DNA of 63,690 nucleotides, the filler included, from Dugesia japonica (Eukaryota), in assembly GCA_001938525.1 (NCBI GenBank). It is 5 parts of 5 records of this genome, joined end to end, with 100 filler letters (N's around TTAATTAATTAA, not from the genome) between each part and the next. Parts side by side here need not be neighbours in the genome. Positions count along the whole stretch, not along the records: positions 17,438 to 27,370 come from MQRL01465134.1; 4 more parts are not named here. The stretch is one strand, 5' to 3'. Under the pieces are notes generated by a model, which saw only the letters and a program-made list of their open reading frames with translations, made no database searches and was not told the origin of the DNA. Each line of letters starts with the position of its first letter. The first letter of the stretch is position 1. The translations under genes and the position numbers were made by a program. Positions 77-56,200 of the stretch are shown here, in pieces.

Positions 77-3000
77 TGGGATAATGAAATTCCTCCAGAA
101 ATTAAGCAAGAAGAAACTAAAAATACTGAAAGACTTCAATCTGCTTTTAAGATAATAGCAGGAGTTGATGGTGAAGTGGATGCAGACGAACTTCAACAAA
201 TTCTTGATGTTTCATTCAAAAAAGGTTATTTTCAAAATAAATTAAAGTTTTCTTTTTAACGTGATAATTTCTTTAGAGAGTAAGTGAATTTAATCGATAT
301 CAATGTTGATAGATTTACATTGTCTTCGTTGACTATTCATCATGAACTTTACTTCATTTAGATTTCAAATTCAATGGATTTTCTAGAGAAACTTGCCGCA
401 GTATGGTTGCTATGATGGATGTTAGTCATTTCAAATTGTTTATTTTCATTAAATATTGAAATTGCAAATCACAAATTTTCATTATTTCGATATAAACTGA
501 GGAGATATCGCCATTTTACAATTATATCATTTTGATTGGGAAATTATCATATGATAAACTGTTTCTTATTATTTATATAAAATACAAAATAAAATATAAA
601 TTTCCCTGTATATTATTTAATATCTATAATTGATTTTCCTTAAAATATTATGCCAATTATTAGTATAATATATCAGTTTTAATGTGATTGCTTGTATTTT
701 GATGTTTATTAAATTGATGTGTTTNTTGATTTATTCTGCCTACCATTACGAAATCAATGCAAAAATAAATAGTAATAACCGCATTTTGTCTTCGTACGAC
801 TTAAATATATTTTCCTTTAATCAGAAGTTAGATGTTTATTTAAGATTTGTGACTTGAACAAAATCATTTGTGACTGAGTGAGTTAAAACTGAAAATTATT
901 AAAATCTGTAAAGGTAGCGCAAAGCATGAATTTTTTGGATTAATTAGATTTGAATAATAATTCTCTTTAGAAATGTTTTATTAATTGAATTTTATCAACA
1001 TATAACAGTGGTGCACAACCGTTTTTCTAAACAAATCGCACCATCAGTTTAAATCAATTTCATGGGCCATGAATTCAAAACTTTCGGGCTGAAGGTTGTG
1101 CATCACTGATATTAAGGGTGCTATACTGTATAACTTCGAAAATATTTATAACACTGTTAAATTGTCATTTTACAGCTAGTATTTTGAAGGAGATCGTTGT
1201 GAATCCGTGAAATATTGGTTGTAGAGAATCATATTTCTATAAAACAATAGATGTTGGATTTTTCATGAACTTGGGTCGCGGGCCATATGTAACATTGTTG
1301 TGGGCAAACCTGACCTATAAAATTGAATATAAAAACGTAATATTAATTTACTTTTAGACTGATCAGTCTGGACGACTTGGTTTTAATGAATTCAAGGTAT
1401 TATGGGACGATTTGAGGTTATGGAAAGTAATTTACAGTAATATTACATTTAATTTATTCAAAACGTGTTTTATTTAGACTGTTTTTAAAAAATTTGATGA
1501 AGACCAAAGTGGAAACTTTAATTCTTATGAAATTCGTCAAGCTCTCAATTATATCGGTAAATATATTTTCGTTATTTAAATAATATATTTTTTCTATATT
1601 CGATAATTTTAAAATTGAGAAACCTCTTCCTCTGTTCTTAGCATGGTACGAAAGTCGGTAAAGTCATAATTATCTTAAACTTTCTTTGAATACATAGTAA
1701 AAGGATAAAATACACAAGAGAATTATAAAACAATTTTACTGTAAAGTTTCTATTATTTCTAATACAAATTTGATAAAATTTTCAAATCATTGCGATACAC
1801 CAATAATTTTTTGAAATTTAATTATAAAAAAATTTTTAAATATTAATTCGTATCTTTTTCATTGCTAATTCCTATAAAACGATTGAAGAACGCCTGTATA
1901 ATGGCGAAATATTTGAAAATTTTTGTATAGAAATTGAGTAGTATAGCAATAAAAGTGAAATGAATTTAAATTAAATTGAAGATTGATTCTCAAGCATCTA
2001 ACGTTTCGCGGTTGTTTGAATTTTATTTTAATAACAGATTAACACAGATATTCTTGAAAATCAACAATACCGACAGAGATCAACTGCGACAAACACTCAT
2101 GAATTTTATTTTTAGTTTTCGACATAGGCTGTGTATTATTTTCAATTTATTTTTTTTGTTAGGTTATGTTTTATATGCTATTCTCGCAAAGCACTCAGAG
2201 GTTCCTACAGGAGAATGTAGATAAATAAAACTCTGCTAAATTTTTCGAACGTATTTTTATATGATGGTGTTTTCTAGTACCATCAAACGACAAATGCTTA
2301 AAGAAATAAATATAATTTCTATGTTGGTTTTTATTGATTGTAGTTACTTAATGAATGTGTCAAAAATATCGATTATACCGACAATTTTTACTAGAACCAA
2401 TTAGAGCCACACTAACCACAGGGATAAATTGCGCAAGCCTTTTGGGGGGGGGCTATTTTTATTTACGATATACATTTTGTTGTTATTATTAATTAATTAT
2501 TTATTTATTTCGAAAATTGAATCTACATTTCCACAGTACTGCGCATCTTTTTAAGTATCGCCACTACAAACTGGAGTGGCGAAAGATCATTTTCAGCAAT
2601 AAAAATAATAAAAAATTATTTCCGATCTTTTTTGGGACAGAGCAAGTTCAATGATTTAAGAGTATTTTATCAATTAAGACAGATATTTATTTGATAAGTT
2701 AAATACGAGTAATATTATTGATCAGTTTGCCAAAGAAAAAGCTTGGAAAATAAATATTTAAGTTACTTTTGTTTCTTGTTTGCATTAAGGTTTNNNNNNN
2801 NNNNNNNNNNNNNNNNNNNNNNNNNNNNNNNNNNNNNNNNNNNNNNNNNNNNNNNNNNNNNNNNNNNNNNNNNNNNNNNNNNNNNNNNNNNNNNNNNAAT
2901 ACAAGTCAAAATATATTTGTTTCCTTTATTGATTTTTGAATATGGAATCATTTCCATTAAATCCATTTGCCATAAATAAATAAATTGATTTTTTTAGTTT

Positions 3001-4965
3001 ACACTTTTGTATAACTTTTCCGGAAACCCCGCTCCAATTTGCTATTCTGTGAATTTTCTTACGAAGAGGGGCGCATTATTTTTAGTAGCCTACGGACGCT
3101 GAATTTCTTAAGACGGCCTTGTAATCAATTGTTTCTATAATCGTGTAATTACTGAATTAGTTCTCAAATTTTGTTCTACTTTAATTGATTTTTTTAATCA
3201 ATAAAATTGTTTTTACATTTTATTTTTAATAATAAAATTTAAGGAAACTGTTTTACTGTTATCTCAACAATAATTAGTTTTGTAAAATATTTTAAAACAA
3301 TATAATATCATTTCTTAACCAATGAAAATTAATTTTAATCAAATTAATTCCAGTTGGGTTTCTACTAAATGAAATGACTAGAATGAATTGAACAATCATT
3401 TCTATTGAAGACATTGTCAAAATATTGAGCAAACTATAAAAATAAGAAAACAAAAATTATGATCTTTGCATTTTGAAAGAAAATTTTATTTGATAAATAC
3501 AGATCAATGGTTGACAATTGAAAATAGTTACATATAATGTTTTTAATAAAATTAATTGAAAATATACACTCAAACATGTTTTAGTGCGAATTTTTTTGTT
3601 TGGTATATGAATATATAAAATTTTCATATACCGCACAAAAACAGGTTTGATTGTAAATACATTTAAGAAAAAGTCAATTCCTGACGAAGACCAAGTCAAA
3701 AATTTGAAATATTATCAAAAAAACAATAATTTGATTGAAGCTTTTATTTTAATGAAATCTCAAAAACAACCAACGTTCAACAATTATTCTCGCAATAATT
3801 GTAATTTTTAATCTACCTAATTCTGTTTTAACGCAATAGATACGATCTACCGCAACTCGCGTAAAAATTTTAAGTTAATTATTTATTAATATGAACATTC
3901 ATTATAAATAAGAGAAATAAATAAGGGAAATCTCCTGTATAAGAGTGTCATAGATTTTTCGTATCACATGATTTAGTGTTTATTTCTAAAAACGTGTTAA
4001 AACCAGCACCTACACTAAAATTGTTATAAATAAAAAGATTTAAACCACGTAGAAACAGATTGCAATATTTTTTTTGAAATCGCAATTAACGAAATTCTCG
4101 TAAAAACAGAATTAGGTGTATAAAGTAAATATTATTATTTTCTTAATTGTAAGCAAAAATTTCATATGGATCGAAAAGACTCGGCAGACTTAAATGTGCA
4201 AGATTTGAATTGGCGAACAAAGGTTAATAGAAATATAAAAAATTACCACCATTTTTAAATATTTCTTTTCAGTAATATGTTTCGATAGGTAAAAAAAATT
4301 ACTTTTATACTACAATTTCGATTATATAATCAATTATTATATGAATAAAATATTCAAGTCAATTAAAAACTTTGATACGTCTACAGTAAAAATGTAAAGT
4401 TTTCTTGCATAAGTCTAAAATTATTGATATTAAGAATTGATTATGTTTAGAAGTTTATCAGAGTTTCTGAGAAGATTTATCTAAGGAAGATTTAAATTCC
4501 TCAGAATTTTTAAGATTTTCATCAATCGATAATTGAAGATCGATTTTAGTTAAATATTCTCATTTAAAATGATATTAATAACACAGTTCAGATGTTATTA
4601 TTTTTATTATTATTATTATTTTATGAAATTTTTCTATTAAAAACATATGAAAATAGAAATCTATATAAAATTTCTAATTTTTAAGTCACAAATTTATCAT
4701 TGACAAAAATTTAGGATTCAAAATCAGTAATCGAGTATTCACAGCCATAATCACTAGATACGCTAATAAACAAGGAATAATCACATTTGATGATTATGTT
4801 CTTTTACTAGTTCGACTTAGAACAATTTTTCTCACTTATAAAGCCCAACAAAAAACGTCTAAAGGAGAGGCCATATTTCCACAAGATGAGGTTGGAATTC
4901 ACTTTACATTATAAATTGATAACATTTTATTATTTTAGTTTATGCAGTGTGTTCTTTACCTTTGA
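77..4965 (+). CDS. Calpain-family gene, C-terminal penta-EF-hand domain; exons 77-224, 362-420, 1358-1426, 1478-1556, 4715-4890, 4939-4965; 5' end outside the window or unresolved
   Basis: Phase-consistent GT-AG splicing gives ...AFKIIAGVDGEVDADELQQIL...[31 protein letters not shown]...FKKFDEDQSGNFNSYEIRQAL...RYANKQGIITFDDYV...FMQCVLYL*, the calpain domain IV pattern. AATAAA at 5108. Confidence 0.92.
1006..1108. mobile_element. Small hAT-like MITE in a calpain intron
   Basis: 15-bp TIR CAGTGGTGCACAACC / GGTTGTGCATCACTG with 1 mismatch. No clear target-site duplication (TSD). Confidence 0.5.
2898..2975 (-). repeat. 78-bp copy of the Polinton integrase segment at 10777-10854
   Basis: Identical sequence (QMDLMEMIPYSKINKGNKYILTCI), abutting an N gap. 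Confidence 0.85.
3671..3805 (+). repeat. Dispersed repeat with a degenerate hammerhead-ribozyme core (Penelope pLTR-like)
   Basis: ATTC-CTGACGA-A-GAC-CAA-GTC-AAAA (G12 mutated), followed by the family motifs TTGATYGAAGCTTTTATTTT and CAATTATTCTCGCAATAATT shared with the 18.3, 30.7 and 56.0 kb copies. Confidence 0.65.
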
Positions 4966-5526
4966 TTTCGAATGTGATGAGAACTTAGCTTAAATATTAT
5001 TTAAACTGGTCTTTAAATTTGATAGCTAACTTGATACAGTTTTCTTTTATATTTTTTAGAAATGCTTATTTTTTATTATTTGCCATTGCCTCAGAAAACA
5101 TTTTGATAATAAATTGTCTTATAATTTTGAATTAAATAAAATTAATAATATATAATGATAAATATTTCAGGATTTTATTGAAAACAATATTTCAAATTTG
5201 TTATAGAGAAATACGCTAACAGAAAGGTCTATTGTATGATCAACGAAGACTTACTTGAAACATGTTAGCTGTCGTTAAATTATAAGTGTCATTTTCAAGA
5301 ACCGAATCCATTAAAAAAATTAGAATAACTTCAAGACTTATTTATAACAATAATTAAACATTCAAATTTTNNNNNNNNNNNNNNNNNNNNNNTTTTTCAA
5401 GGCTAAATTATTTTAATATTGACAAAATTTACTGGCTATAATAATCGATATAAAATTTATTGAAATTATTTAAAAAATGATGATTTTCGATAATAACAAA
5501 TATGACTTTCTTTTTAAACTCTTAAC

Positions 5527-7100
5527 ATCTCACCTTTTTAAAATCTTTAATTTTCTCTAAATTTCTAATGACTGTTTTTCCTGTAACATCTCTTAGTAAT
5601 AATCTCCTTTCATATATTTCTTGATTATAGTATATGTTCCTACAAATCTATCTTGGTCTTTATTACGTATTTCTTGTTTAATTAGCACTTCGTCTCCTAT
5701 ATTCAATTTTCGTGCTGTTCTTATGCTGTTTTCTTTATTTTGTTTTTCAATTTTTATTATCATTGCTTTTCCATCTATTTTTATGTTACTAAACCATTTT
5801 AATCTATTTATTTTTCTACCCAGTACAATATCTGCTGAACTTACTCCGTTGGTTTTTTGAGTTATGGAATATAAAATGTACTCAATTTCTGGTAATATAT
5901 ATATATATATGCCTAATTCGTATTGCTTCAATTTTTTAATGATGCATTTATGTATTCTCTAATTGTCCAAAATTGTCTTTCCACCATTCCTTTTTTATTG
6001 TTTTGATATGAGCCAGAGAATATTAACTCAATTCCTACTGCACTTGTTACTTTCTTTACACTCTTTGCTTTAAAGCTTTCTCAGCTATCTGGGTGTAAAT
6101 TCCTTTGGTGTCCCAAATTTTAATATCTAATTATTCAGTAAACTTTTATCTTGTTTATTTATAGTGGTCAATACTATATATTTATTTTAATGGTCGATAA
6201 TTGCACAAATATATCTCTTTTTTGTGTTTTTTTCACGTTCCGCATATATCCTTATATATTTTCTCGAATAGTTTATTTGCCATTACTACTTTAGTGTTTT
6301 CATTTACCCCTGTCGTCACTATTTTTGACTTTTGACATTCATCCCATTCTGATAAATTGCGTTTTACTTCAGCAACCATATCCTTCATATCAAAATTATT
6401 TTGAATAAGACCATTTCTTGTATATTACACGATAGAACCCATATCTTTCTATATTTTGTATAAGCAATATCATTTTCCAAAATAAATTAAGCAGTTTCCT
6501 GTCTATTAAATCCCTCAAATATTTTCTGTATTTCTTTGTAATCATTTTGCCAACTTTCACCATTACCTTCTTCCATGGTGGTTAATAGTCTCATTTGAAA
6601 TCGCTCTACCTTTGGTTAATCATGGTTCATCATAAATTGTACGCATGTTCCGCATGTATTTCTTGAAAGCATATCTGCATTGCCATGTGCTGTACCTTTT
6701 CTAAATTCAATCATAATATCTAGGCTGCTCAAATAATTTATCCATGTTTGGAATTGTGCTGTTATTGGTTTTTAGTAGTTAGCATTTACAATCTAGACAC
6801 AATCTGATCTTTCTTTTCTTTTTACCATACACATACTAAAAATGTATTCTAAGGTGAATTGTAACTACTTTGTCTTCTAAATATTTTTTGGCCTTATTTA
6901 TTTTTCCTTCTAAATATAGAAGTCGTCTTTTTGGTTTTGTATTTATTAATCCTCAATTCGTTTTAATTATAGCAGTACATCCGATATCCCACTTGTCGGC
7001 TCATTAAATTGTTTACAATATAAATAATAATTGTCATTCAGATTAAATATACACGAATTCTCGATTAAAAAAAATTTATAATAAATTTTCAGATACAAAT
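5527..7100 (-). mobile_element. Decayed Gypsy LTR retrotransposon pol remnant (RT start, RNase H, integrase)
   Basis: Minus-strand KPITAQFQTWINYLSSLDIMIEFRKGTAHGNADMLSR and integrase C-terminal IGDEVLIK. Polypurine tract AAAAAGGTGAGA followed by TG at 5527. Confidence 0.85.
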
Positions 7101-7329
7101 ATGATGCAGAAATGTTTTATCAAATTATCATCTAAATCTTGAATGAAATTAATCGCTAGTTCAGGCTGGCTTGTTTTAGAAACTGGTGTTGGATTAGTTT
7201 GCGAATGAGTATTTATTTTTGTTTATGGTTGTTGNGTGATATATTTGTATTGTTATTCGTCGCTTTTTTGTTGTTTAGTGTTTGATCTTAAGCACATGTT
7301 ATATTTGTATATTTATTTTCACTTACAGA

Positions 7330-7891
7330 GTTACCGCTACATTAAGCGTGAGAGGCTTAAGATTGCACAAGTAGACTGCTAGACCTACCACAGAAAAGGG
7401 AATATAAGAAGAAATTGTTCAGACAAGAAACCAATAAAATGTTTTGGTTGTGATAAGATTGTTAAAAGACGTTGTAGGTTAAACGAACCTCACCACGAGA
7501 AGACAACAAGACGGAACACGCAATTTTAAAAGCGCGTAGTCAACACGAGATTATATTATGAATTAACAAGTAAATGCATTCGATAAGATGAAAATGAAAA
7601 GCCGTTTTCTAAAGACATAATAGAAGACATAGATATATGAACAGAATATTCAAGCAACAGAGGTTCACTAATATAGGGAACTGGTCGGAAATGTTTACTG
7701 AAAGAGATGCCGATTGATTACCCTAAAAAGTCGACAAATACAACATGAGTAAAATAAGAGTTTTATGGATTCTTTAAGAAAAAAATATTCAAGGAGAAAA
7801 AAGCAAAAGAAAGAAGCACATGTAAATATCTCATCTCTACGCAAAGTTTTTACAAAATTTGGTGTTTACGTATACTCAATGCTGATTGGTA
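7330..7891 (+). mobile_element. Retrotransposon gag remnant with decayed zinc knuckles
   Basis: C*TYHRKGNIRRNC...IKCFGCDK; many stops. Confidence 0.5.
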
Positions 7892-8501
7892 NNNNNNNNN
7901 NNNNNNNNNNNNNNNNNNNNNNNNNNNNNNNNNNNNNNNNNNNNNNNNNNNNNNNNNNNNNNNNNNNNNNNNNNNNNNNNNNNNNNNNNNNNNNNNNNNN
8001 NNNNNNNNNNNNNNNNNNNNNNNNNNNNNNNNNNNNGATCGAATCAATCTGGTATCTAGACACGCGGAAGACTAAGATGCACTTTGTGGTGGGCGGAATT
8101 AATTGCATAATATTCACAAAAACTCAAACAAACAAATAAAACCTAAAAATCATTGTTCAGGCCATAGTTTTCACTATTTTTATTAAAAGATAGTATTATT
8201 GGGCTTCAAGACTTTTGGTGTTAATTATCTTTTCTGATGCACACTTTCCTTTTTTCTCCGAACGTTATTTCTTTGGATGAATATCTTCTAGGGTTAGATA
8301 CCGCGAAGCCGGCAGAAATTTGACAATACCTGGTGCATTGGTCAATCTAAAACTAACCACAAATTCCTTAATTCAGTTACCGAACATCCCAGTGTGGTAT
8401 TAGTTGCTTTAGAAACTAAATAATAGAAAAGTTTATCTTGATTTATTAATAGTACATAATTTAATGTGAGATTACAATTTTATTATTATCCGAATTAGTT
8501 A

Positions 8502-8995
8502 TTAAAAAATTCGATTTGATGCCGTTTCAATCTTTGACGAAAGCCGGTCCGACCTCTTTGAGTACTCTTCTGCTTCCAATTGACTGTTTTGTATTGCGAC
8601 GATCAACTGCCACTGCTGCTGTGAGAAAGCCGTTGAGTTGATGAGCAGCATTATCAATTCCTTCTCTCTCCCCTCTTGCCAGGTGACGATTTCGTAAGTT
8701 TCGATTTGTAACATTCCCCATGCACATCCACTCGGATATGCAGATTTTCCAACTGCTCGGTTCTTTCAGCGAGCCTCTCCTCTTGCAATTGTATGGTTTT
8801 ATTTAAAGCGGCGATCTTATTCTCTCCTGAGTGATCCACCAGAGCTCGGTGTCGGTATCTTTCAGCCCTAGAAAATCCCAAGAGTTGGGCATATCACTGC
8901 TTGAATTGGGACTGGTTGAGAAAGATCGCATACTGTCTTGCAATGACTTCTCTACGTTTATCCTCATCACTCGACGTAATTTTATCGTCACGATT
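8502..8995 (-). pseudogene. Orphan coiled-coil-like ORF remnant(s) at the left of the Polinton core
   Basis: Frame reads DDKITSSDEDKRREVIARQY...KQ*YAQLLGFSRAERYRH...IAALNKTIQLQEERLAERTEQLENL. More GC-rich than background. Confidence 0.4.
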
Positions 8996-9325: not shown

Positions 9326-10014
9326 TCAATAGTAAATCATAGTAAAACAAAATTCCAACATAATTAATAACTGATCAAGCTTTAATGTGAATGATTTAAA
9401 TAGTTTTGAGCAGTTTTTATTAATATATTCATTTAATTGATTTAAATCCTTTATGAATAATTCATCCTCAAATTGAAATGTATGATCACTTACAGTAAAG
9501 AAACTATAACTAAGTTTTATTCTTTCAATAGAGTCATCGTTTTTAAATGATTGCATGTTAGTAGAAAATTGATGGTCAAAATAATGGTTAATTGTTTTGT
9601 TTAAATTAAATTGTTTTGCATTTTCCTCACTATCAATTGACAAAACTCTCTCTGAACAAACCGTACTATTATTATTATAAAATGTAATCGTATTTCCATT
9701 CGACAATATATTGCTTTGAACACCACTAAATGTTGGCTGTGGTCTTACATAATATAAACTGATTAACTTGTTTTGTTGTCAATAGTAACAATTATTGCTC
9801 TTGTTATAAGATGAAATTCTTGATATTGAATCGTGACGTCACTATAATACGGAAAAGGAGAATAAACATATGGGAAAACCATCATGGCTACTTCCCAATT
9901 ACCTTTCAAGTAAATCGGATTTTTAAGCTCAACATTAAACTTACTAGCTGTATTATTTCGATGAATAAGAGGACTACTATTACTTGGTAAAAATGTATAG
10001 AAATTATTCCTCAT
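9326..10014 (-). pseudogene. Polinton minor capsid (penton-like) protein, frameshifted and truncated
   Basis: N-terminus FYTFLPSNSS...NNTASKFNVELKNPIYLKGNWEVA matches the Polinton minor capsid signature (FY.TLPSNSS...L.G.WEVGL). ATG overlaps the integrase stop. Confidence 0.8.
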
Positions 10015-11055
10015 TGTTGATTAATTTTGATACAAATATCCAACTAGGATTTTTATATCCAAGCTACTTTACATAATATTGTTTATTCTATTTCGTACCC
10101 TTTGACCTTATAATTTTTTCAATTCTGAATACTGATGGTGGAGGAATCACTTGTAGTTCCTGTTCATAAAACTTTTCCTGCACAATATTATTCTCATAAT
10201 CTTTAATGACATACATGACAGGATTCTGTTTGGTATTGATTTTAAATATTTGAAACACCTCATCAATCCAATTAGTATCGAAATTCTTGATGAATGGAGA
10301 AGTCGATATCTTTGAAATTCTAACGTGGTCACCAACTTTATATTTTGGTTTTTTAATTGCTTTCTTATGTTGTCGTGAGAGCCACAGTTTTAATTGGTTA
10401 TTTGAACTAACATCAACTGGTCTTGCTCCATTAAAACTCTTATGACTTGAATGATCATAACTATAAATTAGTTTCGGTAATACATGTATCCATGTTTTAT
10501 TACCAACATACAGAAAATATTTCTTCAAAGCATCTCTCAATGTACGAATAAATTATTCGACATGTACAGCTTTGTACTGACTTAATACAGTATAATGATT
10601 TATTTTTAAATGCGATAGTAGATTTTTTACTTTAGAATTAAAAAATATTCCTTACCCAAATCTATTTGTAAATTATCCGGGTGTCCATCTTTAAACATTA
10701 ATTTTATTGCAGCTTCAATATCAAGTGTGGATTTTGATTTGACTGGAACTGATCTTGCAAATTTGTTGAATACATCAATACAAGTCAAAATATATTTGTT
10801 TCCTTTATTGATTTTTGAATATGGAATCATTTCCATTAAATCCATTTGCCATAATTCGTCAATACCATATGTTTTATATGCTCTCATTGTAAATCTTTTC
10901 AGCATTGGTTTGTTCAGACTGTACGCTAACTGGTTTGATAACCGATTTTTTATTGTTTTTCAATTTTTGTTCTGCTTTCATCAATTTTTCTACGCCACGA
11001 TAATCTGATTCGCTTCTTGGATCAGTCCATATTGTCTGCAGTTTGCCGATTACAA
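10004..11055 (-). pseudogene. Polinton retroviral-like (rve) integrase with C-terminal chromodomain-like tail
   Basis: IDELWQMDL, KYILTCIDVFNKFA, LQIDLGKEY, YKVGDHVRISK, FYEQELQ, FRIEKII...YYVK*LGY...SWI. Several stops and frameshifts. Confidence 0.92.
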
Positions 11056-11132
11056 CAATTCGATGAAAATTTGAAATTAAAATTAGGTAGTGATTGTAAA
11101 TCACCTATTGTTTATTTGAAATGAGTCAAGCC

Positions 11133-11426
11133 TTATGCAGCTAATGCAATTAGTAATAAGGCAGCAATAAAACCACCATTCGGTTTAACTATTACGCTTC
11201 TCATCAATCTCTTGTTCTTTACAAGCAATAGTAACGATTTTTTATATTTTTTCAAGACTTCTTTTCTACCTTTGCTCACATTTACATTACCATTTACAAT
11301 ATTTACAAGAATTTCAATGAAATCATCAATAACATAGGTTGGAAATGATTGCAAAATTTTCATTATTTTTTGTTTTGAATATTTGAGCGATGCTGCAAAA
11401 AATGGTTTATTTCTTTGTAAAGTCAT
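11133..11426 (-). CDS. Small basic Polinton-type protein ending in GGF plus a hydrophobic tail
   Basis: EILVNIVNGNV...KKYKKSL...NGGFIAALL resembles the conserved small Maverick protein found near the ATPase and integrase. ORF is open. Confidence 0.6.
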   Translation of the reverse strand: MTLQRNKPFFAASLKYSKQKIMKILQSFPTYVIDDFIEILVNIVNGNVNVSKGRKEVLKKYKKSLLLLVKNKRLMRSVIVKPNGGFIAALLLIALAA

Positions 11427-11459
11427 TGTTAATAAAATTAATTACATAACTGTTGATTG

Positions 11460-11706
11460 TTTATAATGTTTTCCATTTTCTATTTACGTTTTTAAGCTTC
11501 TTACCATAAATTTTCGCCAGGTTTTTGAACTGATTTAATCCAACTCGTTTTTTAAAACATATTTTTGAACTGATTTTTGATTTTCTTTGTTTACTTTTTA
11601 GCTCAGGTTTTTGTTTTACTTCGAACGCTGCTTATTATCCGAACGCTGTTTAGCTTTTGGATTGATTTTCTCTTGTTTAACTATAACTTTTTTAAATTTC
11701 GACATT
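11460..11706 (-). pseudogene. Lys-rich Polinton ORF remnant
   Basis: MSKFKKVIVK... frameshifted to ...KKLKNVNRKWKTL*. Lies between the ATPase and the GGF gene. Confidence 0.4.
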
Positions 11707-11720
11707 TTATAACAAAATAA

Positions 11721-12335
11721 TTACTTCGTTTGTTTATACACTGTGACGCCATTAGAGTTAAAAATATCAGTTCGTACTCTTAAATCATCTGGACATTGTT
11801 GTGTAAAGTCTAAGAAGATGTATCCATGCAGCTTTACTGTTGCATCCTTCAAAGCGTTCAATAGAAATTGTCTATTGTTTGGGTAAGCCTGTTTTGCTAG
11901 AAAATCCACAACTGTTTGATATCTTGGATTCTTAAATATAACCAAGTATTGTACATTCAAATTACAAGTTCTGTGACTTCCACCTTGATAAAATAGATTT
12001 TGAGTAATGAATATCGCAATCACAGATATATGTCTTAATATCTTTGTGAATAAATTATTAAAATCCTTTTCCTTGTTGGCTTCCTGATACAAATCATCGA
12101 CAACAATCACATCACCTTTTGTAAATCTCATCAAAACCTTTATAATTTTCATCTCTATATTTCAAAATTTGGATTGAGTCAATCCATGCTCTTTATCGGC
12201 ACCTCTATGCCAGTATATTGTGTTAAATTAAGATTTAAACATGTTTGATTTCAATAATTTACATACAAATAAAGTTTTTCCGCTACCACTTGGACCAACA
12301 ATTTGATAAACAGCATNATTTCGTAATTTCTCCAT
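11721..12335 (-). pseudogene. Polinton A32/FtsK-like DNA packaging ATPase with two in-frame stops
   Basis: Walker A IVGPSGSGKT, Walker B VIVVDD, ITQNLF, RTCNLNVQYLVIFKNPR, LRVRTDIF. Confidence 0.93.
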
Positions 12336-17216: not shown

Positions 17217-17973
17217 ATTATTCTAAATAAATACTTGTAATAGTGAATTCTCAATTGATTTATTAATTACAAATAAGGGAAAATAATGAACCCAAACGAA
17301 AGGTATGCGTGAGTGCACCTCAAATAAATGTTGGAGGNNNNNNNNNNNNNNNNNNNNNNNNNNNNNNNNNNNNNNNNNNNNTTAATTAATTAANNNNNNN
17401 NNNNNNNNNNNNNNNNNNNNNNNNNNNNNNNNNNNNNAAATCCCAGAGATTTGGCTAACTATTAGCCGGGGCCGCAATAAACGACCATCCTTCTTCGTTC
17501 AACGATTTCTCCTTGTCCGCTAGTACTATTCTTCTTGACATATGTATATAATGAGGGCTATTCATAATAGTCAATTTAATTCGGCTTGAAAAGTCATGAA
17601 ATGGTCGATCGAAGTTGTATTATAGTTCCATCAATAAGGAACAAGACAACTGCATAAACTTGGGCCAAATACGATTAAATCACCAAGCTAATTATCGGAA
17701 AACGAAAGTAGCATTATAAAATTATCTAGGAAATATAAAGAAGAACTATTCGTCACAATCACACCAGCTGTTGTTTATTTATTTAAATCGTTATTAAATC
17801 TAGAATATCATGTAAGTTATTAAACATTATTCGATTTCAAAGATACACAACTCTGTGACTGTGACGACTAGTTCGTCTTCATTGAATTATCATGAGGGTC
17901 GACAATTCACTGCTTAACAGTTATCTATCATGAGGTAAGTAAAACATTCAATCTTAAATTTACTCAAATAACA

Positions 17974-18079
17974 ATCAAGCCTAATATCATACGAAAAGAC
18001 AATGCAATGAAATCAATTGAAGATATTGATCTTCAATTGATTTCATTGCATTGTCTTTTCGTATGATATTAGGCTTGAT
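17974..18079. repeat. Perfect 51-bp inverted repeat with a 4-nt loop
   Basis: 17974-18024 is the exact reverse complement of 18029-18079; loop is ATTG. Confidence 0.95.
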
Positions 18080-18405
18080 CAAAGTTATGAAATAATCAAA
18101 CTAAAATTATAAGTTAGCCTAGATAATCAACCAAAAATATAATGGATTAATTAAATTAAAATTATAAGAATAGAATTAAACTAAATAAATAATAAATGAC
18201 ATTATACGATATGCTCATGAAATAAATAAACTAAGGTTATCAGCTAAATTTATAAAATATAAACTAAATTTAAGAATTTAATGAATTAACAATTGCAATT
18301 ATTGCGAGAATAATTGTTGGACATAACCATTGATAGTTTTTCACAAATCATTTAAAATAAAAGCTTCGATCAAAAAAAATTTTTTATATTTTTTTTTAGA
18401 GATTG

Positions 18406-18438
18406 ATTCGATATTTCGAGTTTGTCTTCGTCAGGAAT
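18406..18438 (-). ncRNA. Minimal type I hammerhead ribozyme motif
   Basis: Minus strand reads AUUC-CUGACGA-A-GAC-AAA-CUC-GAAA-UA-UC-GAAU: intact core, stem I AUUC/GAAU, short stem II with one mismatch, loopless palindromic stem III (AUAU), cleavage triplet AUC. Confidence 0.65.
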
Positions 18439-18466
18439 TGACTCTTTGACTAAATTGACTAAAAAG

Positions 18467-18815
18467 TAGGGTCTACCGATATGCATTTTGCCGATACCGA
18501 TATGAGTATTTGTTAGGACAAAAACCAGTTGTCATATTTGATGACTTTCCAGAATTGCATCCAGATTCTAAGCATCCTAAAAAGCATTCTAATCCTGATG
18601 CTAATACTAGATTCTATATTTCGCATCGGAATCCACGAATTTGAGGCAACAATAAATTCTCTAATATTAGTGTAGTTGGGTATACACCTTATTTTTTTGT
18701 CAAAGTGTTACTTATTATGAAATAGCTGTGACGTCAATATCGGGACCTATACATACTACCAATACCGATATTTCCAAAACCCTGATATCGGTGCCGATAT
18801 ATCGGTAGACCCCTA
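18467..18815. mobile_element. Non-autonomous hAT element (MITE)
   Basis: TIR TAGGGTCTACCGAT / ATCGGTAGACCCCTA, perfect 8-bp TSD CTAAAAAG, CCGATA subterminal repeats. Confidence 0.9.
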
Positions 18816-19577
18816 CTAAAAAGTCAATTCCTGACGAAGAAAAAGTCGAACTATTGAATCTATCTCTAAAAAGAATTATAAAAAAAACTTTTTGATCGAA
18901 GCTTTTATTTTAAATGAATTTTAATGAATTAAAATTATAAAATAGTCAAAAAGAATTAATATTTTTAATACACAGATATAATTGTGTTCATAGATTTGTT
19001 AAAAATTTCATTATGCAGAGAAGATATGAAGAGACTCAACCACCACCATCTATGAGTTTAATATCAATTAGATAACTTCTTTCATTCATTTCTAATAGTA
19101 TTCTCGTTTCATGCTATTTGCTTTCAAACTATTTACTTTTGATAAGGTTCACCTTATGGTGCTCACTTTAAATATAAAGTGTAATGATTAGGCTGATTTA
19201 CTCTTCACAATAGCTCTTCTCAATACTCATTCTCATTTCTCGTCACCATTTGTATTCAATATCACAATATTCACTTTACTCCCCTGTCATAATTCACGTT
19301 TAATATTTCTTAAACCACTTCCAGCTTCTGTCATGATTTATACCTCCTTTTTTCACTTCAATCTCCTGTTTTTAGTTACTTTCATACTTCTTCATTCACT
19401 TCAAACTACTGTCATAATTTATCGATATTCTTACAATAATAACAATTTTACCTTTTATTTTTACATGAATTTCAATTTAATGAATTATAAATTACATAAT
19501 TGTTTTTGTTTTATTTATCTATTTTTTTACACACTGTCCTTTTATTATATCAATACTATTATTAACATAAATAATTA

Positions 19578-24227: not shown

Positions 24228-25217
24228 CAGCGACGGATCCAAAAATTTTTCATGTGGGGGATTCAAAAAAATAATTATTTAAATAATTATGTATAAATTT
24301 ATTATTTAATCGAGCGGGAATTAAATTCTTGGTTTAAATAAAGTGAAATTAATGATTTTTTTGTTTAAATTTACTTAAATTAATTTTTAATAAATTTTCA
24401 CGGAAATCCAGTAGAAAAGTGCATAATGTTTAAATATTTAATTTCTTAAAAATAAAATTTAATATTTTCAAAATGAAGACCAAAAATGTACTTATTTTAA
24501 TTTTTATTAGGGTTAAAAATTTCAAAAATTTAATTTTTCGATTTTATCTTCTTTAGGAGTTGTGATTAAATAAATTGAATAAATCAATCACAACTCTTGA
24601 AGAAGAAGATAAACTCGAACATTTGGGGAATTAAGTTAAATTTTTGAAACCTTAATAAAAATGTTTTAAAAACCTTTTTTGATCTAAGCCTTAGCTTATT
24701 TTCTTAATTTGGAAAATATTTAATTTTATCATTCAGAGATCAATGGTTAAAAATTGTAAGAATAGCACAGGTAAAAATCACCAAAACGTATTCCTGAGGA
24801 AATAATTCAAAATAGCAATTAAAAACAAACAAGTACAATTTCTATATAAGGTTAATTTTTTTTATAAAACTTATTTAATTTATAATTTTTAGTATTTAAT
24901 ATTTTACAGATTATATATCGATCCTAAATTACTAAACCAAAATTCCAAACCGAATTTCTAAACCACTTTGTAATCGGGGGATGNGGTTTAGTGCACCACT
25001 ATCTATCTACTTTATTTTTAATCTACAATTATTTTTATCTTATTCATTTCGACTTTTTGATGCAAAGTTGTTTTTAATTATTTCTTCTTTACTTTCTCAT
25101 ACTACTATTCTAATATTTACGTGGATAGTCGTTCCTTATCATTATATAACGTTTTTAAAATCCGGTTATGGGGGGGGGCGGTCGTCCCGATTGCACCCCC
25201 CTGTGGATCCGTTCTTG
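24228..25217. mobile_element. Non-autonomous hAT element containing a degenerate hammerhead-repeat pair (24536-24620)
   Basis: Imperfect TIR CAGCGACGGATCCA / TGGATCCGTTCTTG and perfect 8-bp TSD ATTTCATT. Confidence 0.75.
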
Positions 25218-26199: not shown

Positions 26200-26640
26200 T
26201 AATAAGTATTTTAAATTAATCTGCGATTAGTTGCTGAAACGACAAATAAACCACCCATATTTTGAAGCAATTATTTACAGGTGATAAAAAACCGATTGTT
26301 TACGATAACATGGCGCGTAGAAGGTCAAGGGGTCTCAGTTACAATTTACTACAAACCATATCAATGGCAGGATTTCACCCATAAAAGATAATGCTATTAG
26401 TTTGGTGAGATTTTTTAGGTTTCATCTACTATGAGCAGTTACCATCTGGCACAACAATTCATGCAAATATACACTACTCGCAAATAACGGAATTGAACAA
26501 GGAAATCAATGAAAAGTATCCAGATTTGGAAAATTGCAAGGGCATTGTCTTTCATGCTCGGCTCAATATATATCATTGGTCGCTCGGAAAAACAATAATG
26601 AATCTTGGATTGGATTTATTTGTCTCATCCATCAAAAAAA
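26200..26640 (+). mobile_element. Mariner (DD34D-type) transposase fragment
   Basis: TGDKKPIVYDN, FHP*KIMLLVW*D, YYEQLPSGTTI, KGIVFH. Confidence 0.8.
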
Positions 26641-27650
26641 AAATTTTATTTGAAATAAATAAATTAAATAAAAATAAATCTTTTTTAAAAATATGAAAAT
26701 TCAATTAAATGTGTTGATTAATTTTCTTTTAAAAAAATCAAATTTATTATCTTTATTTTTGTGTTTTAATAAATTTTCAATGGATTCAACGTATGAATAG
26801 ATTCAACGATGAATATCTTAGGCTCATCTAACAATTTTAACATAATATTTATCCAGTAATTAAAGTAAACTTGAAAAATAATTTTTCCACAAATATTATT
26901 CGTGAAAAGTATGATCTTATTTAGTGAGTTATTTTTTTTTAAATATTTCTTTTTAAAAAAAAATTAAATTTAATGAACTATAATAATTTTTAACATTTTA
27001 AATTGTATGTAAATTAAGAAATAATTATTATTATTTTTTTAATTTCTACTCTCCTTTAAAAATAACTCGTAATTTTATTTTTTAAAAATTGCTTTATTTG
27101 ATTTCTAGATTAATTTAAATAAATAATAAAAACAGATTCTATTATCTCACTTTACTTAACGACAAAGATAGATTTCAATTTATCTACAAAGAATTGAATC
27201 GCGGAGCCGTCGCAAGAAGATTATTAAATATTTATAAAAAATATCATCAAATTAAAATGTCACTCATGTAATAATTGATTATTTGTTACACGACAATTGC
27301 ATGCATTATCTTCTTCAACATTGCGTCTACAAGATTGACACATCAATTCACATATCTCATTATAAGTATTNNNNNNNNNNNNNNNNNNNNNNNNNNNNNN
27401 NNNNNNNNNNNNNNTTAATTAATTAANNNNNNNNNNNNNNNNNNNNNNNNNNNNNNNNNNNNNNNNNNNNAACACTTGTAGCGAGAACCAAACATGTTTT
27501 GAGAAAAGTAAAATTATATTCTTATACAGAATTTAATTACAAGTTCATCCAAATTAAATTCCGAAAATTAAAATTTTCAAACTCCCCGACCAAAAATTTG
27601 ACAAATCAAAATCGAAAATATTTTCATGTATTTATATCGGTCAATAAAAT

Positions 27651-30724: not shown

Positions 30725-30838
30725 TATAATTACAATTATTGCGGGAATAATTGTTGGACGTAACAATTGATCGTTTTTGAAGTTTCGATCAAATTGGTTT
30801 TTGATAATAATTCTAATTTTCGACTTTGTCTTCTTTCA
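30725..30838 (-). repeat. Further copy of the hammerhead-bearing repeat family, core partly lost
   Basis: ATTATTGCGGGAATAATTGTTGGAC...TTCGATCAAA...TTTCGACTTTGTCTTC. Confidence 0.65.
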
Positions 30839-31147: not shown

Positions 31148-32648
31148 TTAATCCAAAAGAAGTTCAAATTCTTTACTATGTTGCCCTGATTGAAGACATG
31201 TAATTCCAATTAAAGGATGATTAGTATCTTTCAAGTAGTTCTAATTTAAAATAAATAAGTAATGTAAACCCAAATATTACATGCGCATATGCCATTGCAT
31301 TCTTCTTTTCCTCTTGAGAAGCACCAGCTCCGACGTAAACAAACATATGTTTTCCATTATCAATCATGAAAACATCCTAAAATTAATTGGTTTACAATTT
31401 ATTTCATTTAATATATTTTTACATTATCTTTCAACATAGATTTTGGAGCTTTACCTTCTGAAAGAAGAGAAAACGTCATTTTACCTGTTTCATCGGATAA
31501 CCTAAATTTTTTAAATTTTAAAACTTTTTAAAAATTAAAATACCTGTACATACATTTTGAAATAACTAAATCTTCATGTTTTTTCTTGGTAATTGGTACA
31601 TCAGGCAATAATTTGTAGATTTTATGCTTAATCATATATCAGACTGGAATCACTTAAATTTTTATCTTACGTTTGTTGGCATATCTTCTTCATCTAGTAC
31701 CTCAGTTTTACAACGACCATTTCTTTCTGATTCTAATTGTTGTAGAAATTGTGCAGCCTTGACAATTAATTAATTATACAAATAAAAATTTTAAATATTA
31801 CTTGCACTTTCTCATTTTTATTTGACAATTTGCCATTCCACTGAAAAGCTTCAAGGCCATTGTCCAAAATGAAGACATCTCCTGAAATTAAGGCATTTTT
31901 TGAAAATTTCACTTCTACTAATTCAACATGTTTTTGATCAGCACAATGAAAATGCAGCAATCTCGGTTCATATTTATCAGGTGCAACATGTTTAAAGCCA
32001 CTTTCACATCCACCTTTCATTATACTGAAATATTTGAAATTAGTATTTATTCTTCAAAAGTAATTACGTTATAACGGGGAAATAGGATTTAAAAAGATCA
32101 GATTCAAATCCTTGAACTTCTCTATGCTGAATAGCTTTATCATCTAGATAGGTATCTAATTCAACAGTTTTATACGCTGCTGTTCCATATTCATCCTGCG
32201 AAAATTGAAAATTCAATTTTCTTGAAAAAAGTTTTAATTTACCTGTGTACTTCGCTTTCCTATCCAAAAATGAACATCATAGAACAACTCTGGGCTATTT
32301 TCCTCTTTTTTAATTTTTAAAATTATGTAGGAATCTCCATTGAAAAATTTTCCGTAATCTTCTTTTGGCCAATTTACTACTTTAAATTTCTAAAGTAATA
32401 TAAATTGTTCATAAATTGTTAATATAAATTGTTTACCTCAATTCTCCATATAAAGAGACTCGGTGCACTAGCAGTTTTAACTGTAGACCACGCTTTTTCT
32501 GTACCAGATGAGGTTTCTAAATAACAAAGCAATCAAAATTAAATATAATACAGTTTGCCATTGCTTAACTTTTAACTAATTTATCAGTTTCCGATCCAAA
32601 TAAAGCTAGATTGGAATCTTTCCAATCATATTTCTTTTGTTTTATCAT
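31148..32648 (-). CDS. Three-domain gelsolin/severin-like actin-severing protein; 10 coding exons (32648-32570, 32516-32437, 32389-32243, 32195-32068, 32024-31802, 31757-31671, 31626-31544, 31501-31423, 31376-31281, 31240-31148)
   Basis: [79 protein letters not shown]. Splice phases are consistent and no stops were seen. Confidence 0.95.
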
Positions 32649-38336: not shown

Positions 38337-39102
38337 TATTAATGTTTTTAGAGCAATATTAATGCTAAATGTTCTTCCAGATCAAATTAATGTTGGTTTT
38401 ATTTTATTTATTATGTATGTGAGCGATTTTGAAAAGCAAGCTGAAATTTTTGTGTGATTGGTGATCTTATTTTTAAAATCCTTTGTTTAAAAGAGAGATT
38501 TAAATTATTGATGAAAAATTTAAATAAACAAATATTTGGTTAAAAGATAAATTAAAATTATTGAANNNNNNNNNNNNNNNNNNNNNNNNNNNNNNNNNNN
38601 NNNNNNNNNNNNNNNNNNNNNNNNNNNNNNNNNNNNNNNNNNNNNNNNNNNNNNNNNNNNNNNNNNNNNNNNNNNNNNNNNNNNNNNNNNNNNNNNNNNN
38701 NNNNNNNNNNNNNNNNNNNNNNNNNNNNNNNNNNNNNNNNNNNNAAAAGATCATCAATTAAAACACGGGATTTTAATTTGTTTGAATAACAAATAATGTT
38801 GGTCATTAATTTTAATAAAGTGTTGTAATGAATTAAAATTTTGATATTGATGATACGATGAGTTTTCCAAACTCAACTAACAATGTGTATTAAGTTTAAT
38901 ACTTTTATTAATTTAATAAGTTTATTGGTTAAAAAGGTTGAATGAATGTATCGGATTTTATAGGTTTATTAGTTTAACAAGCGTTTTGAGTTTATTGCTT
39001 TTNNNNNNNNNNNNNNNNNNNNNNNNNNNNNNNNNNNNNNNNNNNNTTAATTAATTAANNNNNNNNNNNNNNNNNNNNNNNNNNNNNNNNNNNNNNNNNN
39101 NN

Positions 39103-46980: not shown

Positions 46981-47149
46981 TTTTTTTGATGCAGTTTAAG
47001 TTGTTTTTTAAATACAAAATAAAGTTAATGCTATTTGCTAACATTTCATTTCCAAGTTTTTTGATGTGATAAGCTCTTCTGTACATTCCTCTTGAGAAGG
47101 TAGGATAATAAAAATATTTATCGACAGCATTAAATATTATTAAACTAGT

Positions 47150-49178: not shown

Positions 49179-49513
49179 TATACATATTTTTTTATAGTTA
49201 TATACATTGATATTTATGNNNNNNNNNNNNNNNNNNNNNNNNNNNNNNNNNNNNNNNNNNNNTTAATTAATTAANNNNNNNNNNNNNNNNNNNNNNNNNN
49301 NNNNNNNNNNNNNNNNNNATAATAATATTTAGTTATCTCAATTCTTATTGGCTGAAATTATTAATTAATAATTATTTCCTCATAATATATGTTATATTTT
49401 TTAAACTTTTGCTTAGTGAAATACTCAGAGTTTTTTTTTACTAATACAACAGAAACAGAACATTATTAAAAATATTTTTCCATAAATTCCTAACTCATAT
49501 TCATTTTGAGGCT

Positions 49514-54814: not shown

Positions 54815-56007
54815 TATTTGTGAAAATTATTAACGAAAATCCAGTATTTATATTGTTGAACAAAGTCAGAGAAATATTAGATAAATAAATGTTCACATTA
54901 TTCTGGCAGGATTCTTAGTCTTAAATTGATTGGTATTTTTCCACGAATAAACATTAACTATCTATTTTCTTAATTTGATATGTAAGTTGTCGAACTAATT
55001 ATATCGTTAAATTTCAAATCATATCAATAATTCGGATGTGTAGAATTTTCATTAAGATTATTAATGTAAATTTGTGTCAGATTAAAATTGTCGGTCATTA
55101 ATTGTCTGCCATGTTTAATAAATATTTCATTTTCATTGATCTAATGCAATTTTACCATGAAATTATATTGGAATTAATATATTCATTGAAATAACCGACC
55201 CTATTTATGTTGATTTTGAAAAAAAAAAATTAAATAAAAAAATCAATAAAATGAATTAATAATAAATTTAACTACTAAAATGGGTTTTATTGCAACTGTT
55301 ATAGTTTTCAATAAAAATTCAAGCTATTAAGACTATCTATTAATTTAAATAAGTTAAAATAACAAAATCAATATACTTGATATCTGATGTAAACAAGAAA
55401 CTTGTACTTTAACTTTACAGACATCATTTGTGATAATAGTTCATATAAATTCACGTGTCTATATATTAATAATACCATATAAAATGACCCAGAAATTGTA
55501 TTTGGTGTTATTAAAGTTTACATCTTCACCTAACTATAAAATATTGTTGACTATATTTTATATTATGCGTGTATATATCTAATGAAGTGATTAGTCATTC
55601 CTGTGAAATTGATAAACAAGGGTCTGGAAATATTACAATCAAATTGATATTTTCATCGATTTGATATCAATTTAAAATTTTTGAATGAAAGCCAATGAAA
55701 TTCAACCAATCTGATTTGAAAGAATAATAAGAGAACATCTATAGCAGTGCTGCCGAACTAGGCGATCGCGACCTACCAACAACAAATTCTACAACAAACT
55801 GAAAATGTTAACTTCTAAAAAAAATCTTTTTTGCAAGCAAAAATAATAATTAAAATAATTAGGGAAGCAATACCGAATTCTTCGTTTTGTTTGCTTTTTT
55901 GTTTTTTACTGTTCTTCGCTTTTTTTGTTTTTTCATTATTAAATATCAGCAAGTGTTTTATTTTATTTATATGCCTTATTTTAAATTTAATTTTACAATA
56001 GCAATTA

Positions 56008-56200
56008 TTATTATTGCGAGAATAATTGTTGGACATAACCATTGATCGTTTTTCAGAATTAATTTTAAGTAAAAGCTTCGATCAAAATTTTTGTTTTTTT
56101 TTATTGATATTTGATAACAATTCAATTGATATTGAAGTGTTATTAAATATCAATAAAAAAAGAAAAATTTTGATCGAATGTTTCATTTTAAATGAATTTT
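56008..56200. repeat. Inverted-pair copy of the Penelope-like repeat family with the ribozyme cores lost
   Basis: ATTATTGCGAGAATAATTGTTGGACATAACCATTGAT matches 18298-18333. AAAAGCTTCGATCAAAA...TTTTGATCGAA arms around 56125. Confidence 0.7.

What the first reader, a model, noticed from the sequence alone, without database searches (positions are those of the whole stretch)
18346..18920. Head-to-head pairs of minimal hammerhead ribozymes form a dispersed repeat family
Seen: the consensus ATTC-CTGACGA-A-GAC-AAA-GTC-GAAA-TA-TC-GAAT recurs at 3677 (+), 18406-18438 (-, core intact), 18827-18859 (+), 24536-24620 (inverted pair) and about 30820 (-). A core-less inverted pair sits at 56.1 kb. Known: Penelope-like retroelements carry minimal hammerheads with loopless palindromic stem III that act as dimers, and often leave inverted pLTRs. 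No RT or GIY-YIG sequence accompanies these copies. Inference: abundant non-autonomous, ribozyme-bearing hairpin elements or Penelope footprints.
Basis: partly seen in the sequence, partly recalled or inferred. Interest (0 to 1): 0.7.

Follow-up and report, generated by a model that had tools for sequence, protein, structure and literature searches.

The report
Palindromic Penelope footprints with minimal hammerheads
This is a short leftover of a Penelope-like jumping gene: two back-to-back copies of its end, each with a decayed self-cutting RNA motif, later split by an unrelated small DNA transposon, which is a real, very abundant and already described kind of insertion.

Summary
The repeat is real. 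The unit is 18289-18919, flanked by a 12-13 bp target-site duplication. It has a long arm (-, 18289-18447) and a short arm (+, 18818-18919), head to head. Each arm starts about 14 nt before a Penelope-type minimal hammerhead; only the long arm carries a ~57-nt tail. Over 20,000 contigs per DNA run map here, and their majority bases restore a complete hammerhead. In the window only 1 of 8 arms keeps the whole core, and it has a stem II mismatch. The two motifs lie on opposite strands, so they cannot form the cleaving dimer in one transcript; they fold against each other. Head-to-head junctions, a one-sided tail, AT-rich duplications and opposite-strand minimal hammerheads are all published Penelope traits. 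No autonomous partner was found and covariation is weak. Verdict: new member of a known kind. The one unusual detail is a 3-bp/3-nt stem II, shorter than all 56 published examples I read.

The parts
18277..18288 (.). Left copy of the target-site duplication of the Penelope-type unit (12-13 bp, begins TTTAAT)
   Evidence: 13-base exact match 18277-18289 = 18920-18932; 13 or more in 3 of 5000 AT-rich control pairs
18289..18345 (-). ~57-nt tail, only on the long arm; holds an 8-bp stem-loop at 18296-18316; its end at 18289 is the family's 3' terminus
   Evidence: Loose ends at 18289 in 442 and 477 contigs with unrelated flanks, agreement 0.52; stem-loop in 4 window copies; short arms stop before it
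18346..18447 (-). Body of the long arm (pseudo-LTR-like segment) including the hammerhead
   Evidence: 88% identical to 18818-18920 over 103 nt
18406..18438 (-). Minimal type-I hammerhead, best copy: stem I 4 bp, CUGACGA, extra A, stem II with a C.C mismatch, GAAA, palindromic AUAU, C17; predicted cut 18410/18409
   Evidence: Found by my pairing descriptor (1 of 2 hits; the other, at 23042, is a weak A/U-only match); 96% of mapped depth carries the pairing base at 18420
18448..18458 (.). Junction filler between the arms, with short repeats of the arm start (TTGACT)
   Evidence: Sequence; other copies have shorter, varied junctions (tables 5 and 5c)
18459..18466 (.). Left copy of the 8-bp duplication CTAAAAAG made by the nested MITE (fits nTnnnnAn)
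   Evidence: hAT (Hermes) target consensus in PMC2803484 passages
18467..18815 (.). Nested 349-bp hAT-like MITE with ~18-bp terminal inverted repeats beginning TAGGG; unrelated to the hammerhead family
   Evidence: Terminal repeats; no second copy in the window; separate depth plateau of about 1,100-8,600 over 18490-18814 against 10^5-10^6 on the arms' conserved blocks; many contigs join the arms without it
18816..18823 (.). Right copy of the 8-bp MITE duplication; overlaps the start of the short arm
18818..18919 (+). Short arm, no tail
   Evidence: Ends at the same family position as the 56-kb short arm
18827..18859 (+). Decayed hammerhead: stem II mismatch at 18841, GAAA changed to GAAC at 18851
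   Evidence: majority letters restore both positions in 95-96% of depth
18920..18931 (.). Right copy of the target-site duplication
3668..3808 (+). Single-arm family copy with tail; G12A in the core; no duplication found
30726..30836 (-). Single-arm copy with tail, truncated inside the core; no convincing duplication
55995..56197 (.). Second head-to-head unit (long arm - with tail, short arm +), both arms starting 4-5 nt before the cleavage site; flanked by a 9-11 bp duplication (55986-55994 / 56198-56206) that also begins TTTAAT
   Evidence: 11 or more in 6 of 5000 controls
24478..24693 (.). Older, diverged head-to-head pair, probably a sister subfamily; both cores broken
   Evidence: nhmmer E 0.01 and 0.00035; alignment

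Best explanation
The unit is an extremely 5'-truncated insertion of an endonuclease-bearing Penelope-like element (PLE): only the hammerhead-bearing terminal repeat was copied, twice, head to head. Likely mechanism: (1, inferred) the RT/GIY-YIG protein of an autonomous PLE elsewhere in the genome binds the repeat RNA. (2, footprint shown, enzyme inferred) It nicks both strands of an AT-rich target 9-13 bp apart; both duplications begin TTTAAT. (3, inferred from the anole PLE work) Reverse transcription starts at two sites about 57 nt apart, so one arm has the tail and the other does not. (4, variability shown, cause inferred) Synthesis stops early, often about 14 nt upstream of the hammerhead, and the two copies are joined at a variable junction. 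(5, shown) A hAT-like MITE later inserted into the centre. The hammerhead is inherited cargo. It was probably functional, as a dimer or with protein help, in the source element's tandem RNA. In these palindromic footprints it is mostly decayed and sequestered in a hairpin.
For: Variable-length AT-rich duplications at both head-to-head units tested (13 and 11 exact bases; controls 3/5000 and 6/5000). [quoted passage not shown] Sharp 3' end at 18289 with unrelated flanks, and tail depth 2.3-2.9 times the summed hammerhead depth of both arms, as expected from 5' truncation. MITE-free head-to-head joints from 18439-18447 to 18817-18819 in 37 (X1) and 80 (X3) contigs among the 15 rows shown (250 more not shown), with different filler letters. 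Majority letters restore stem II and GAAA, and position 17 varies C/U as allowed. The motif meets the published consensus: extra base after A9, G10.1-C11.1 (6 of 6 arms), palindromic 15.2/16.2. Opposite-strand pairs 100-700 bp apart and head-to-head palindromic junctions are published PLE features.
Against: No PLE reverse transcriptase or GIY-YIG in 22 long and 150 of 210 short nearby frames. No protein relative of the one open frame across a copy. The autonomous partner is therefore assumed. The tail (~57 nt) is longer than the published 30-40 nt, and stem II is shorter than any of the 56 published motifs. Two single-arm copies show no clear duplication. Covariation is weak: 15 of 500 shuffles reach it, on 6 related sequences. 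One junction form (18385 to 18818) has depth 355-518, several times the flank depth, so some composites were amplified as units. Depth is not a copy count and depends on likeness to this copy.
Confidence: 0.7

Rival explanations
1. A dedicated non-autonomous short element (a PLE-dependent 'SINE' or retrozyme-like RNA of about 160 nt, or the palindrome itself) with a fixed 5' end, copied as a unit by PLE enzymes. It is not a truncation product of full-length PLEs.
For: Three window arms (18L, 18R, 3.7 kb) start within a few bases of one another, about 14 nt before the core. 14 of the 15 joint rows shown end at 18817-18819, and one junction form is multi-copy. Mapped depth is of the order of 10^4 times the unique flank. 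One RNA run shows a ~2:1 strand excess on both arms, hammerhead-sense if the library is of the usual stranded type. No ORF is attached.
Against: The fixed 18818 end may only mark where my query stops matching (the MITE lies beyond). Junction positions and fillers vary. The 30.8-kb and 56-kb copies are truncated at other points. Copies are not in head-to-tail arrays, the defining trait of animal retrozymes. 96% of laid RNA reads run on into unrelated sequence and no pile-up of ends was seen.
Confidence: 0.2
2. A DNA-based fold-back or Helitron-related non-autonomous transposon whose hammerhead look is incidental.
For: Long inverted arms and a terminal stem-loop. The core can occur by chance as coding sequence: 12 of 12 collection hits to my core pattern lacked stem I and lay in open frames of 107 codons or more.
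Against: The duplications differ in length (12-13 versus 9-11 bp), unlike cut-and-paste transposons; Helitrons make none (recalled). The inverted arms are unequal, single arms occur, and tails outnumber heads. All hammerhead parts are in the correct order and spacing, with G-C and A-U stem II pairs invariant in 6 of 6 arms and two palindromic stem III variants. 124-129 contigs stop matching exactly at the end of the stem I 3' strand, 18406.
Confidence: 0.07
3. The pair is a functional, host-retained ribozyme switch (a dimer that cleaves in cis).
For: One arm keeps a full core. Family sequence is present in RNA reads, and 4 reads run from one arm into an inverted second motif.
Against: The motifs are on opposite strands. 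The unit folds arm on arm at -210 kcal/mol, z -15. The monomer hammerhead fold of the best arm scores +0.5 against -2.4 kcal/mol for its minimum-energy fold, and the predicted homodimer pairs only through a short palindrome, not as a hammerhead. 7 of 8 arms have lost core bases. No read ends pile up at the cut site (these long-RNA libraries are a weak test).
Confidence: 0.03

Closest known systems
Minimal hammerheads (min-HHR) of metazoan Penelope-like elements (Cervera and de la Pena 2014, PMC4209133; main text parts 1-2 of 4 and supplement parts 1-2 of 3 read)
   Same: Type-I topology, CUGANGA plus one extra base, G10.1-C11.1, loopless palindromic stem III. Thousands of dispersed, mostly ORF-less copies. 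Opposite-strand pairs 100-700 bp apart were already noted in Schistosoma mansoni.
   Different: Stem II is 3 bp with a 3-nt loop (9 nt); the smallest of the 56 motifs in their Figure S3 is 11 nt. The sequence matches none of the 56 rows, including the one planarian row. No linked ORF was found here.
Insertion structures of endonuclease-bearing PLEs (Arkhipova et al. 2013, PMC3846280, parts 1-4 of 5 read; Craig et al. 2021, PMC8557442, passages read)
   Same: Inverted 5'-truncated copy next to the terminal repeat, head-to-head palindromic junction, tail at one end only, 8-10 bp duplications, AT-rich targets, solo terminal repeats.
   Different: Here the whole insertion is only the two terminal pieces (about 274 bp before the MITE). 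The tail is ~57 nt against 30-40 nt, and one duplication is 12-13 bp.
Anole Poseidon element PAc (Frangieh et al. 2024, PMC11167929, parts 1-2 of 4 read)
   Same: Two RT start sites bound the tail at an AC-rich stem-loop downstream of the hammerhead. Both target strands are cut and extended. No RNA-seq read ends at the ribozyme cut site.
   Different: PAc is autonomous and its activities were assayed; here only footprints are seen and nothing was assayed. No conserved ORF start was established in this repeat.
Animal non-LTR retrozymes (Cervera and de la Pena 2020, PMC7229834, passages; Li et al. 2026 preprint 10.64898/2026.07.22.740005, part 1 of 5, supplements not seen)
   Same: Non-coding, hammerhead-bearing, probably moved by PLE enzymes.
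   Different: Retrozymes are head-to-tail tandem arrays, with canonical hammerheads in the described cases, that yield abundant circular RNA. These copies are single or head to head, with minimal motifs.
hAT-superfamily MITEs (for the nested 349-bp insert; PMC2803484 passages)
   Same: Short terminal inverted repeats and an 8-bp duplication fitting nTnnnnAn.
   Different: No transposase was linked. That TAGGG termini are typical of hAT is recalled, not looked up.

Membership tests
PLE minimal hammerhead | CUGANGA, stem II, GAAA, N N' U H, in type-I order with stem I | tested here: met
   18406-18438 (-) found by pairing descriptor; family majority restores all pairs
PLE minimal hammerhead | [quoted passage not shown] | tested here: met
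   Extra A and G-C in 6 of 6 aligned arms; criteria
PLE minimal hammerhead | Palindromic 15.2/16.2 allowing a dimeric stem III | tested here: met
   Pair kept in 5 of 6 arms, as U-A in 2 and A-U in 3
PLE minimal hammerhead | Helix II usually 4-8 bp | tested here: not met
   3 bp plus a 3-nt loop; the nearest published case is 3 bp plus 5 nt. A typical rather than a strict feature.
PLE minimal hammerhead | Family-wide compensatory changes in the stems | tested here: inconclusive
   3 of 11 pairs with two-sided change; 15-49 of 500 shuffles reach the main measures; 6 related arms only
PLE minimal hammerhead | Self-cleavage as a dimer or with protein help | not testable with these tools
   No read-end pile-up in 2 RNA runs; the same absence was reported for PAc
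Endonuclease-bearing PLE insertion | Variable-length duplication of an AT-rich target | tested here: met
   2 of 2 well-bounded head-to-head units; 0 of 2 single arms; 24.5-kb pair ambiguous
Endonuclease-bearing PLE insertion | Inverted head-to-head arrangement with a tail at one end | tested here: met
   definition
Endonuclease-bearing PLE insertion | 5' truncation with a shared 3' end | tested here: met
   Sharp end at 18289; tail depth exceeds hammerhead depth; arms truncated at 30836 and about 56125
Endonuclease-bearing PLE insertion | Terminal repeat shared with an RT plus GIY-YIG ORF | tested here: inconclusive
   None in the window frames scanned or in protein searches; no whole genome available to search
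Non-LTR retrozyme | Head-to-tail tandem array of hammerhead units | tested here: not met
   All 8 window arms are single or inverted; arrays elsewhere in the genome were not tested
Non-LTR retrozyme | Abundant circular RNA | not testable with these tools
   Only long-RNA cDNA libraries were laid
hAT MITE (nested insert) | Terminal inverted repeats and an 8-bp nTnnnnAn duplication | tested here: met
hAT MITE (nested insert) | Termini shared with a hAT transposase-encoding element | not testable with these tools
   No whole genome available

The most novel reading that the evidence does not exclude
The family is a dedicated ~160-nt non-autonomous RNA parasite of a Penelope-like element. It carries a natural hammerhead smaller than any of the 56 published PLE motifs I read (3-bp stem II, 3-nt loop) that cleaves only when bound by the PLE protein. 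Its thousands of asymmetric palindromic footprints record two cDNAs primed from opposite target nicks at two start sites ~57 nt apart. Counted genome-wide, they would decide between two-strand target priming and antisense self-priming as the origin of PLE head-to-head inversions, a question left open in PMC3846280 and PMC11167929.
Probability: 0.2. Interest if true: 0.55.

Novelty: new member of a known kind. Interest (0 to 1): 0.27.

Why it matters
Modestly. It adds one more, very abundant family to a class described in 2014. Its value is practical: both ends, both duplications and the junction fit in under 300 bp, so each copy is a complete record of one PLE integration, and the genome appears to hold of the order of 10^4 (rough, from summed depth). 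That makes the unsettled PLE integration mechanism testable by counting. The 9-nt stem II also probes how small a natural hammerhead can be.

Tried and rejected
Rfam scan: no hammerhead model at E up to 10; the miRNA hits are generic hairpins below threshold. Core-pattern scans of viral (2 hits) and metagenome (10 hits) contigs: 12 of 12 lack stem I and lie in open reading frames, rejected as coding coincidences. Search for an autonomous partner with the 48-aa frame over the 3.7-kb copy: 0 of 15 candidates and 0 hits among 1.84 billion representatives; weak evidence, since the frame may not be coding. ORF start in the tail: rejected as unsupported, because one of its ATGs is changed in about 47% of mapped depth (18323) and in two window copies. 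Idea that the 56-kb pair was copied from self-cleaved RNA: not supported, since both arms extend 4-5 nt past the cut site into the stem III palindrome. Duplication at the 24.5-kb pair: a 13-base match exists but may be part of the arms and came from wide search windows; not counted. The first duplication control sampled the true site and was redone without it. One tail pattern was mis-spaced and was corrected. Host placement by a glutathione S-transferase exon gave no usable label; 'flatworm-like' is my recalled impression only. The run search listed no RNA holder, which is no evidence on expression. Literature searches for this family by host guess or structure listed no paper whose title or abstract start describes it. 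Repbase/Dfam and most subscription journals were not searchable, so it may already be catalogued.

Full report
Setting. The window is 28.5% GC with many gaps. It holds fragments of LTR and DNA transposons and exons of gelsolin-family genes and glutathione S-transferase-like genes, so it is a repeat-rich animal genome. I did not establish the species. No whole genome was available, so genome-wide statements rest on one laying of two DNA contig sets and two RNA read sets on 18240-18980 at 80% likeness.

Observation. The arms 18334-18447 and 18818-18931 are 85% complementary over 114 nt. Related arms lie at 3668-3808 (+), 30726-30836 (-) and as a pair at 56.0-56.2 kb. A weaker pair at 24.5 kb was found by a profile that did not include it (E 0.00035 and 0.01). 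The arm at 18406-18438 (-) reads as a type-I minimal hammerhead: 4-bp stem I, CUGACGA, an extra A, stem II, GAAA, palindromic AUAU and C17. Its third stem II pair is C.C. The other seven arms have lost core bases or the whole core. The laid contigs confirm it: 20,386 and 24,733 contigs map, and the majority letter differs from this copy towards the hammerhead at 18420 (96% of depth), 18841 (95%) and 18851 (96%); position 17 varies between C and U (42-47% at 18855). 152 further variant rows were not shown. In 124 and 129 contigs the match stops at 18406, the last base of the stem I 3' strand, and the loose-end consensus would extend stem I to about 6 bp in those copies (my reading). The hammerhead bin is a depth peak (437,848 against 140,788 and 21,810 beside it in X1). 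The tail and a middle block are peaks too, so this does not single out the core. Covariation on six arms is weak: one two-sided change in stem II, two in stem III, one in stem I; 15 of 500 shuffles reach the score.

True anatomy. The unit runs 18289-18919. Its left end is marked by loose ends in 442 and 477 contigs with unrelated flanks. It is flanked by an exact 13-base match (12-13 bp duplication). The 56-kb unit is flanked by an 11-base match (9-11 bp). Matches this long occurred in 3 and 6 of 5000 AT-rich control pairs; the right-hand ends were partly fixed after seeing the matches, with 3 bases of slack allowed in the control. Both duplications begin TTTAAT, and both short arms end at the same family position, while the long arms run ~57 nt further through a stem-loop. 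The two single-arm copies gave no convincing duplication. The 349 bp at 18467-18815 is a separate insert with terminal inverted repeats and an 8-bp duplication at 18459-18466 and 18816-18823. That fits the nTnnnnAn target of the hAT element Hermes (PMC2803484, passages). It has its own low depth plateau. Joints that skip it, from 18439-18447 to 18817-18819, occur in 37 and 80 contigs among the 15 rows shown (250 more not shown), with differing filler letters; a few RNA reads show such joints too. So head-to-head pairing is a family habit and the MITE is a later accident of this copy. Tail depth is 2.3-2.9 times the summed hammerhead depth of both arms, the opposite of what whole two-headed units would give. 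Hammerhead depth is of the order of 10^4 times the unique flanks. The tool warns that depth is no copy count, so this is an order of magnitude only.

How it works. Shown: staggered-cut footprints, two 3' end points, variable 5' ends and junctions, and an intact majority hammerhead. Inferred: a PLE RT/endonuclease nicked both strands of an AT-rich site, primed DNA synthesis at two start sites bounding the tail, stopped early and joined the two copies head to head. The purified anole PLE protein cuts and extends both strands and starts at two adjacent internal sites that bound the tail. Its hammerhead cleaves only with protein and is dispensable for insertion in vitro, and no RNA-seq reads end at its cut site (PMC11167929, parts 1-2 of 4). 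The alternative published explanation for head-to-head palindromes is self-priming on an antisense template (PMC3846280); my data do not separate the two. The pair cannot be the cleaving dimer: the motifs are on opposite strands, and the unit folds arm on arm (-210 kcal/mol, z -15; -121 without the MITE). The best arm alone does not favour the hammerhead fold (+0.5 against -2.4 kcal/mol). RNA reads cover both strands (2200 of 13.6 million reads in X22, 69 of 10.5 million in X21); 96% run on into unrelated sequence and none pile up at an end. X22 shows a ~2:1 strand excess that is hammerhead-sense if the library is of the usual stranded type; X21 shows no clear excess. This fits mostly passive transcription of many copies.

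Against, and not shown. No PLE RT or GIY-YIG domain appeared in 22 of the 54 long frames or in 150 of 210 short frames within 5 kb of a copy. Two protein searches with the one open frame over a copy found nothing. Collection scans gave 12 hits, all without stem I. The autonomous partner is therefore assumed. One junction form is multi-copy and several arms share a 5' start, which keeps alive the reading of a dedicated short non-autonomous element.

Comparison with what is known. Cervera and de la Pena 2014 (PMC4209133; main text parts 1-2 of 4; supplement parts 1-2 of 3) define this motif, report thousands of ORF-less copies per genome, and describe dual motifs 100-700 bp apart on opposite strands. 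Craig et al. 2021 (passages) and Arkhipova et al. 2013 (parts 1-4 of 5) describe the inverted 5'-truncated copy, the one-sided tail, the duplications and the head-to-head junction. Animal retrozymes differ in being head-to-tail arrays (passages; preprint part 1 of 5, supplements not seen). It works like a PLE terminal-repeat insertion and meets every structural feature I could test except the usual stem II length; the ORF link and catalytic activity remain untested. The sequence matches none of the 56 published rows, and its 9-nt stem II is shorter than the shortest there (11 nt). Earlier notes of this scan describe the same kind of element in other genomes; they are unchecked AI notes and add no independent support.

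Verdict. A real, very abundant repeat family and a new member of a known kind. Interest 0.27.

Noticed in passing
window 17974-18079: A near-perfect 106-bp palindrome (51-bp arms, 4-nt loop), 200 bp from the finding. No hammerhead core by my descriptor and no flanking duplication found; origin unknown.
   Followed up: partly
window 18467-18815: hAT-like MITE family with repeated CCGATA(T/C) motifs near both ends; depth suggests tens to a hundred or more relatives.
   Followed up: partly
window 9326-12161 (-): Cluster of decayed frames with an integrase core hit and an ATPase-like frame; looks like a Polinton/Maverick remnant (label recalled, not tested).
   Followed up: no
window 35526-36843, 40573-40899, 44960-47176, 57790-60677: Several decayed LTR-retrotransposon fragments (aspartyl protease, RNase H, integrase, zinc knuckle hits).
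   Followed up: no
window 31224-32389 (-): Exons of a gelsolin-family gene (4 Pfam hits); the 30.8-kb family copy lies about 400 bp downstream of the last exon hit.
   Followed up: no
window 49519-50442 and 54067-54762 (-): Two similar glutathione S-transferase-like genes, 72-74% identical in DNA.
   Followed up: partly
window 52930-53539 (+): DUF7047 hit followed by a weak RNase H-like (RVT_3) hit, possibly a DIRS-type retroelement remnant (label recalled).
   Followed up: no
window 26409-26693 (+) and 56413-56634 (+): Mariner-type transposase fragment, and a Spin-doc zinc finger fragment.
   Followed up: no
window 17338-17437, 27371-27470, 39003-39102, 49219-49318: Identical gap spacers of 44 N, a 12-base palindrome and 44 N; also exact duplicates 2898-2975 = 10777-10854 and short repeats beside gaps at 46.1-46.7 kb. 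These are assembly artefacts or likely so.
   Followed up: no
window 51467-52129: Degenerate 21-nt tandem array.
   Followed up: no
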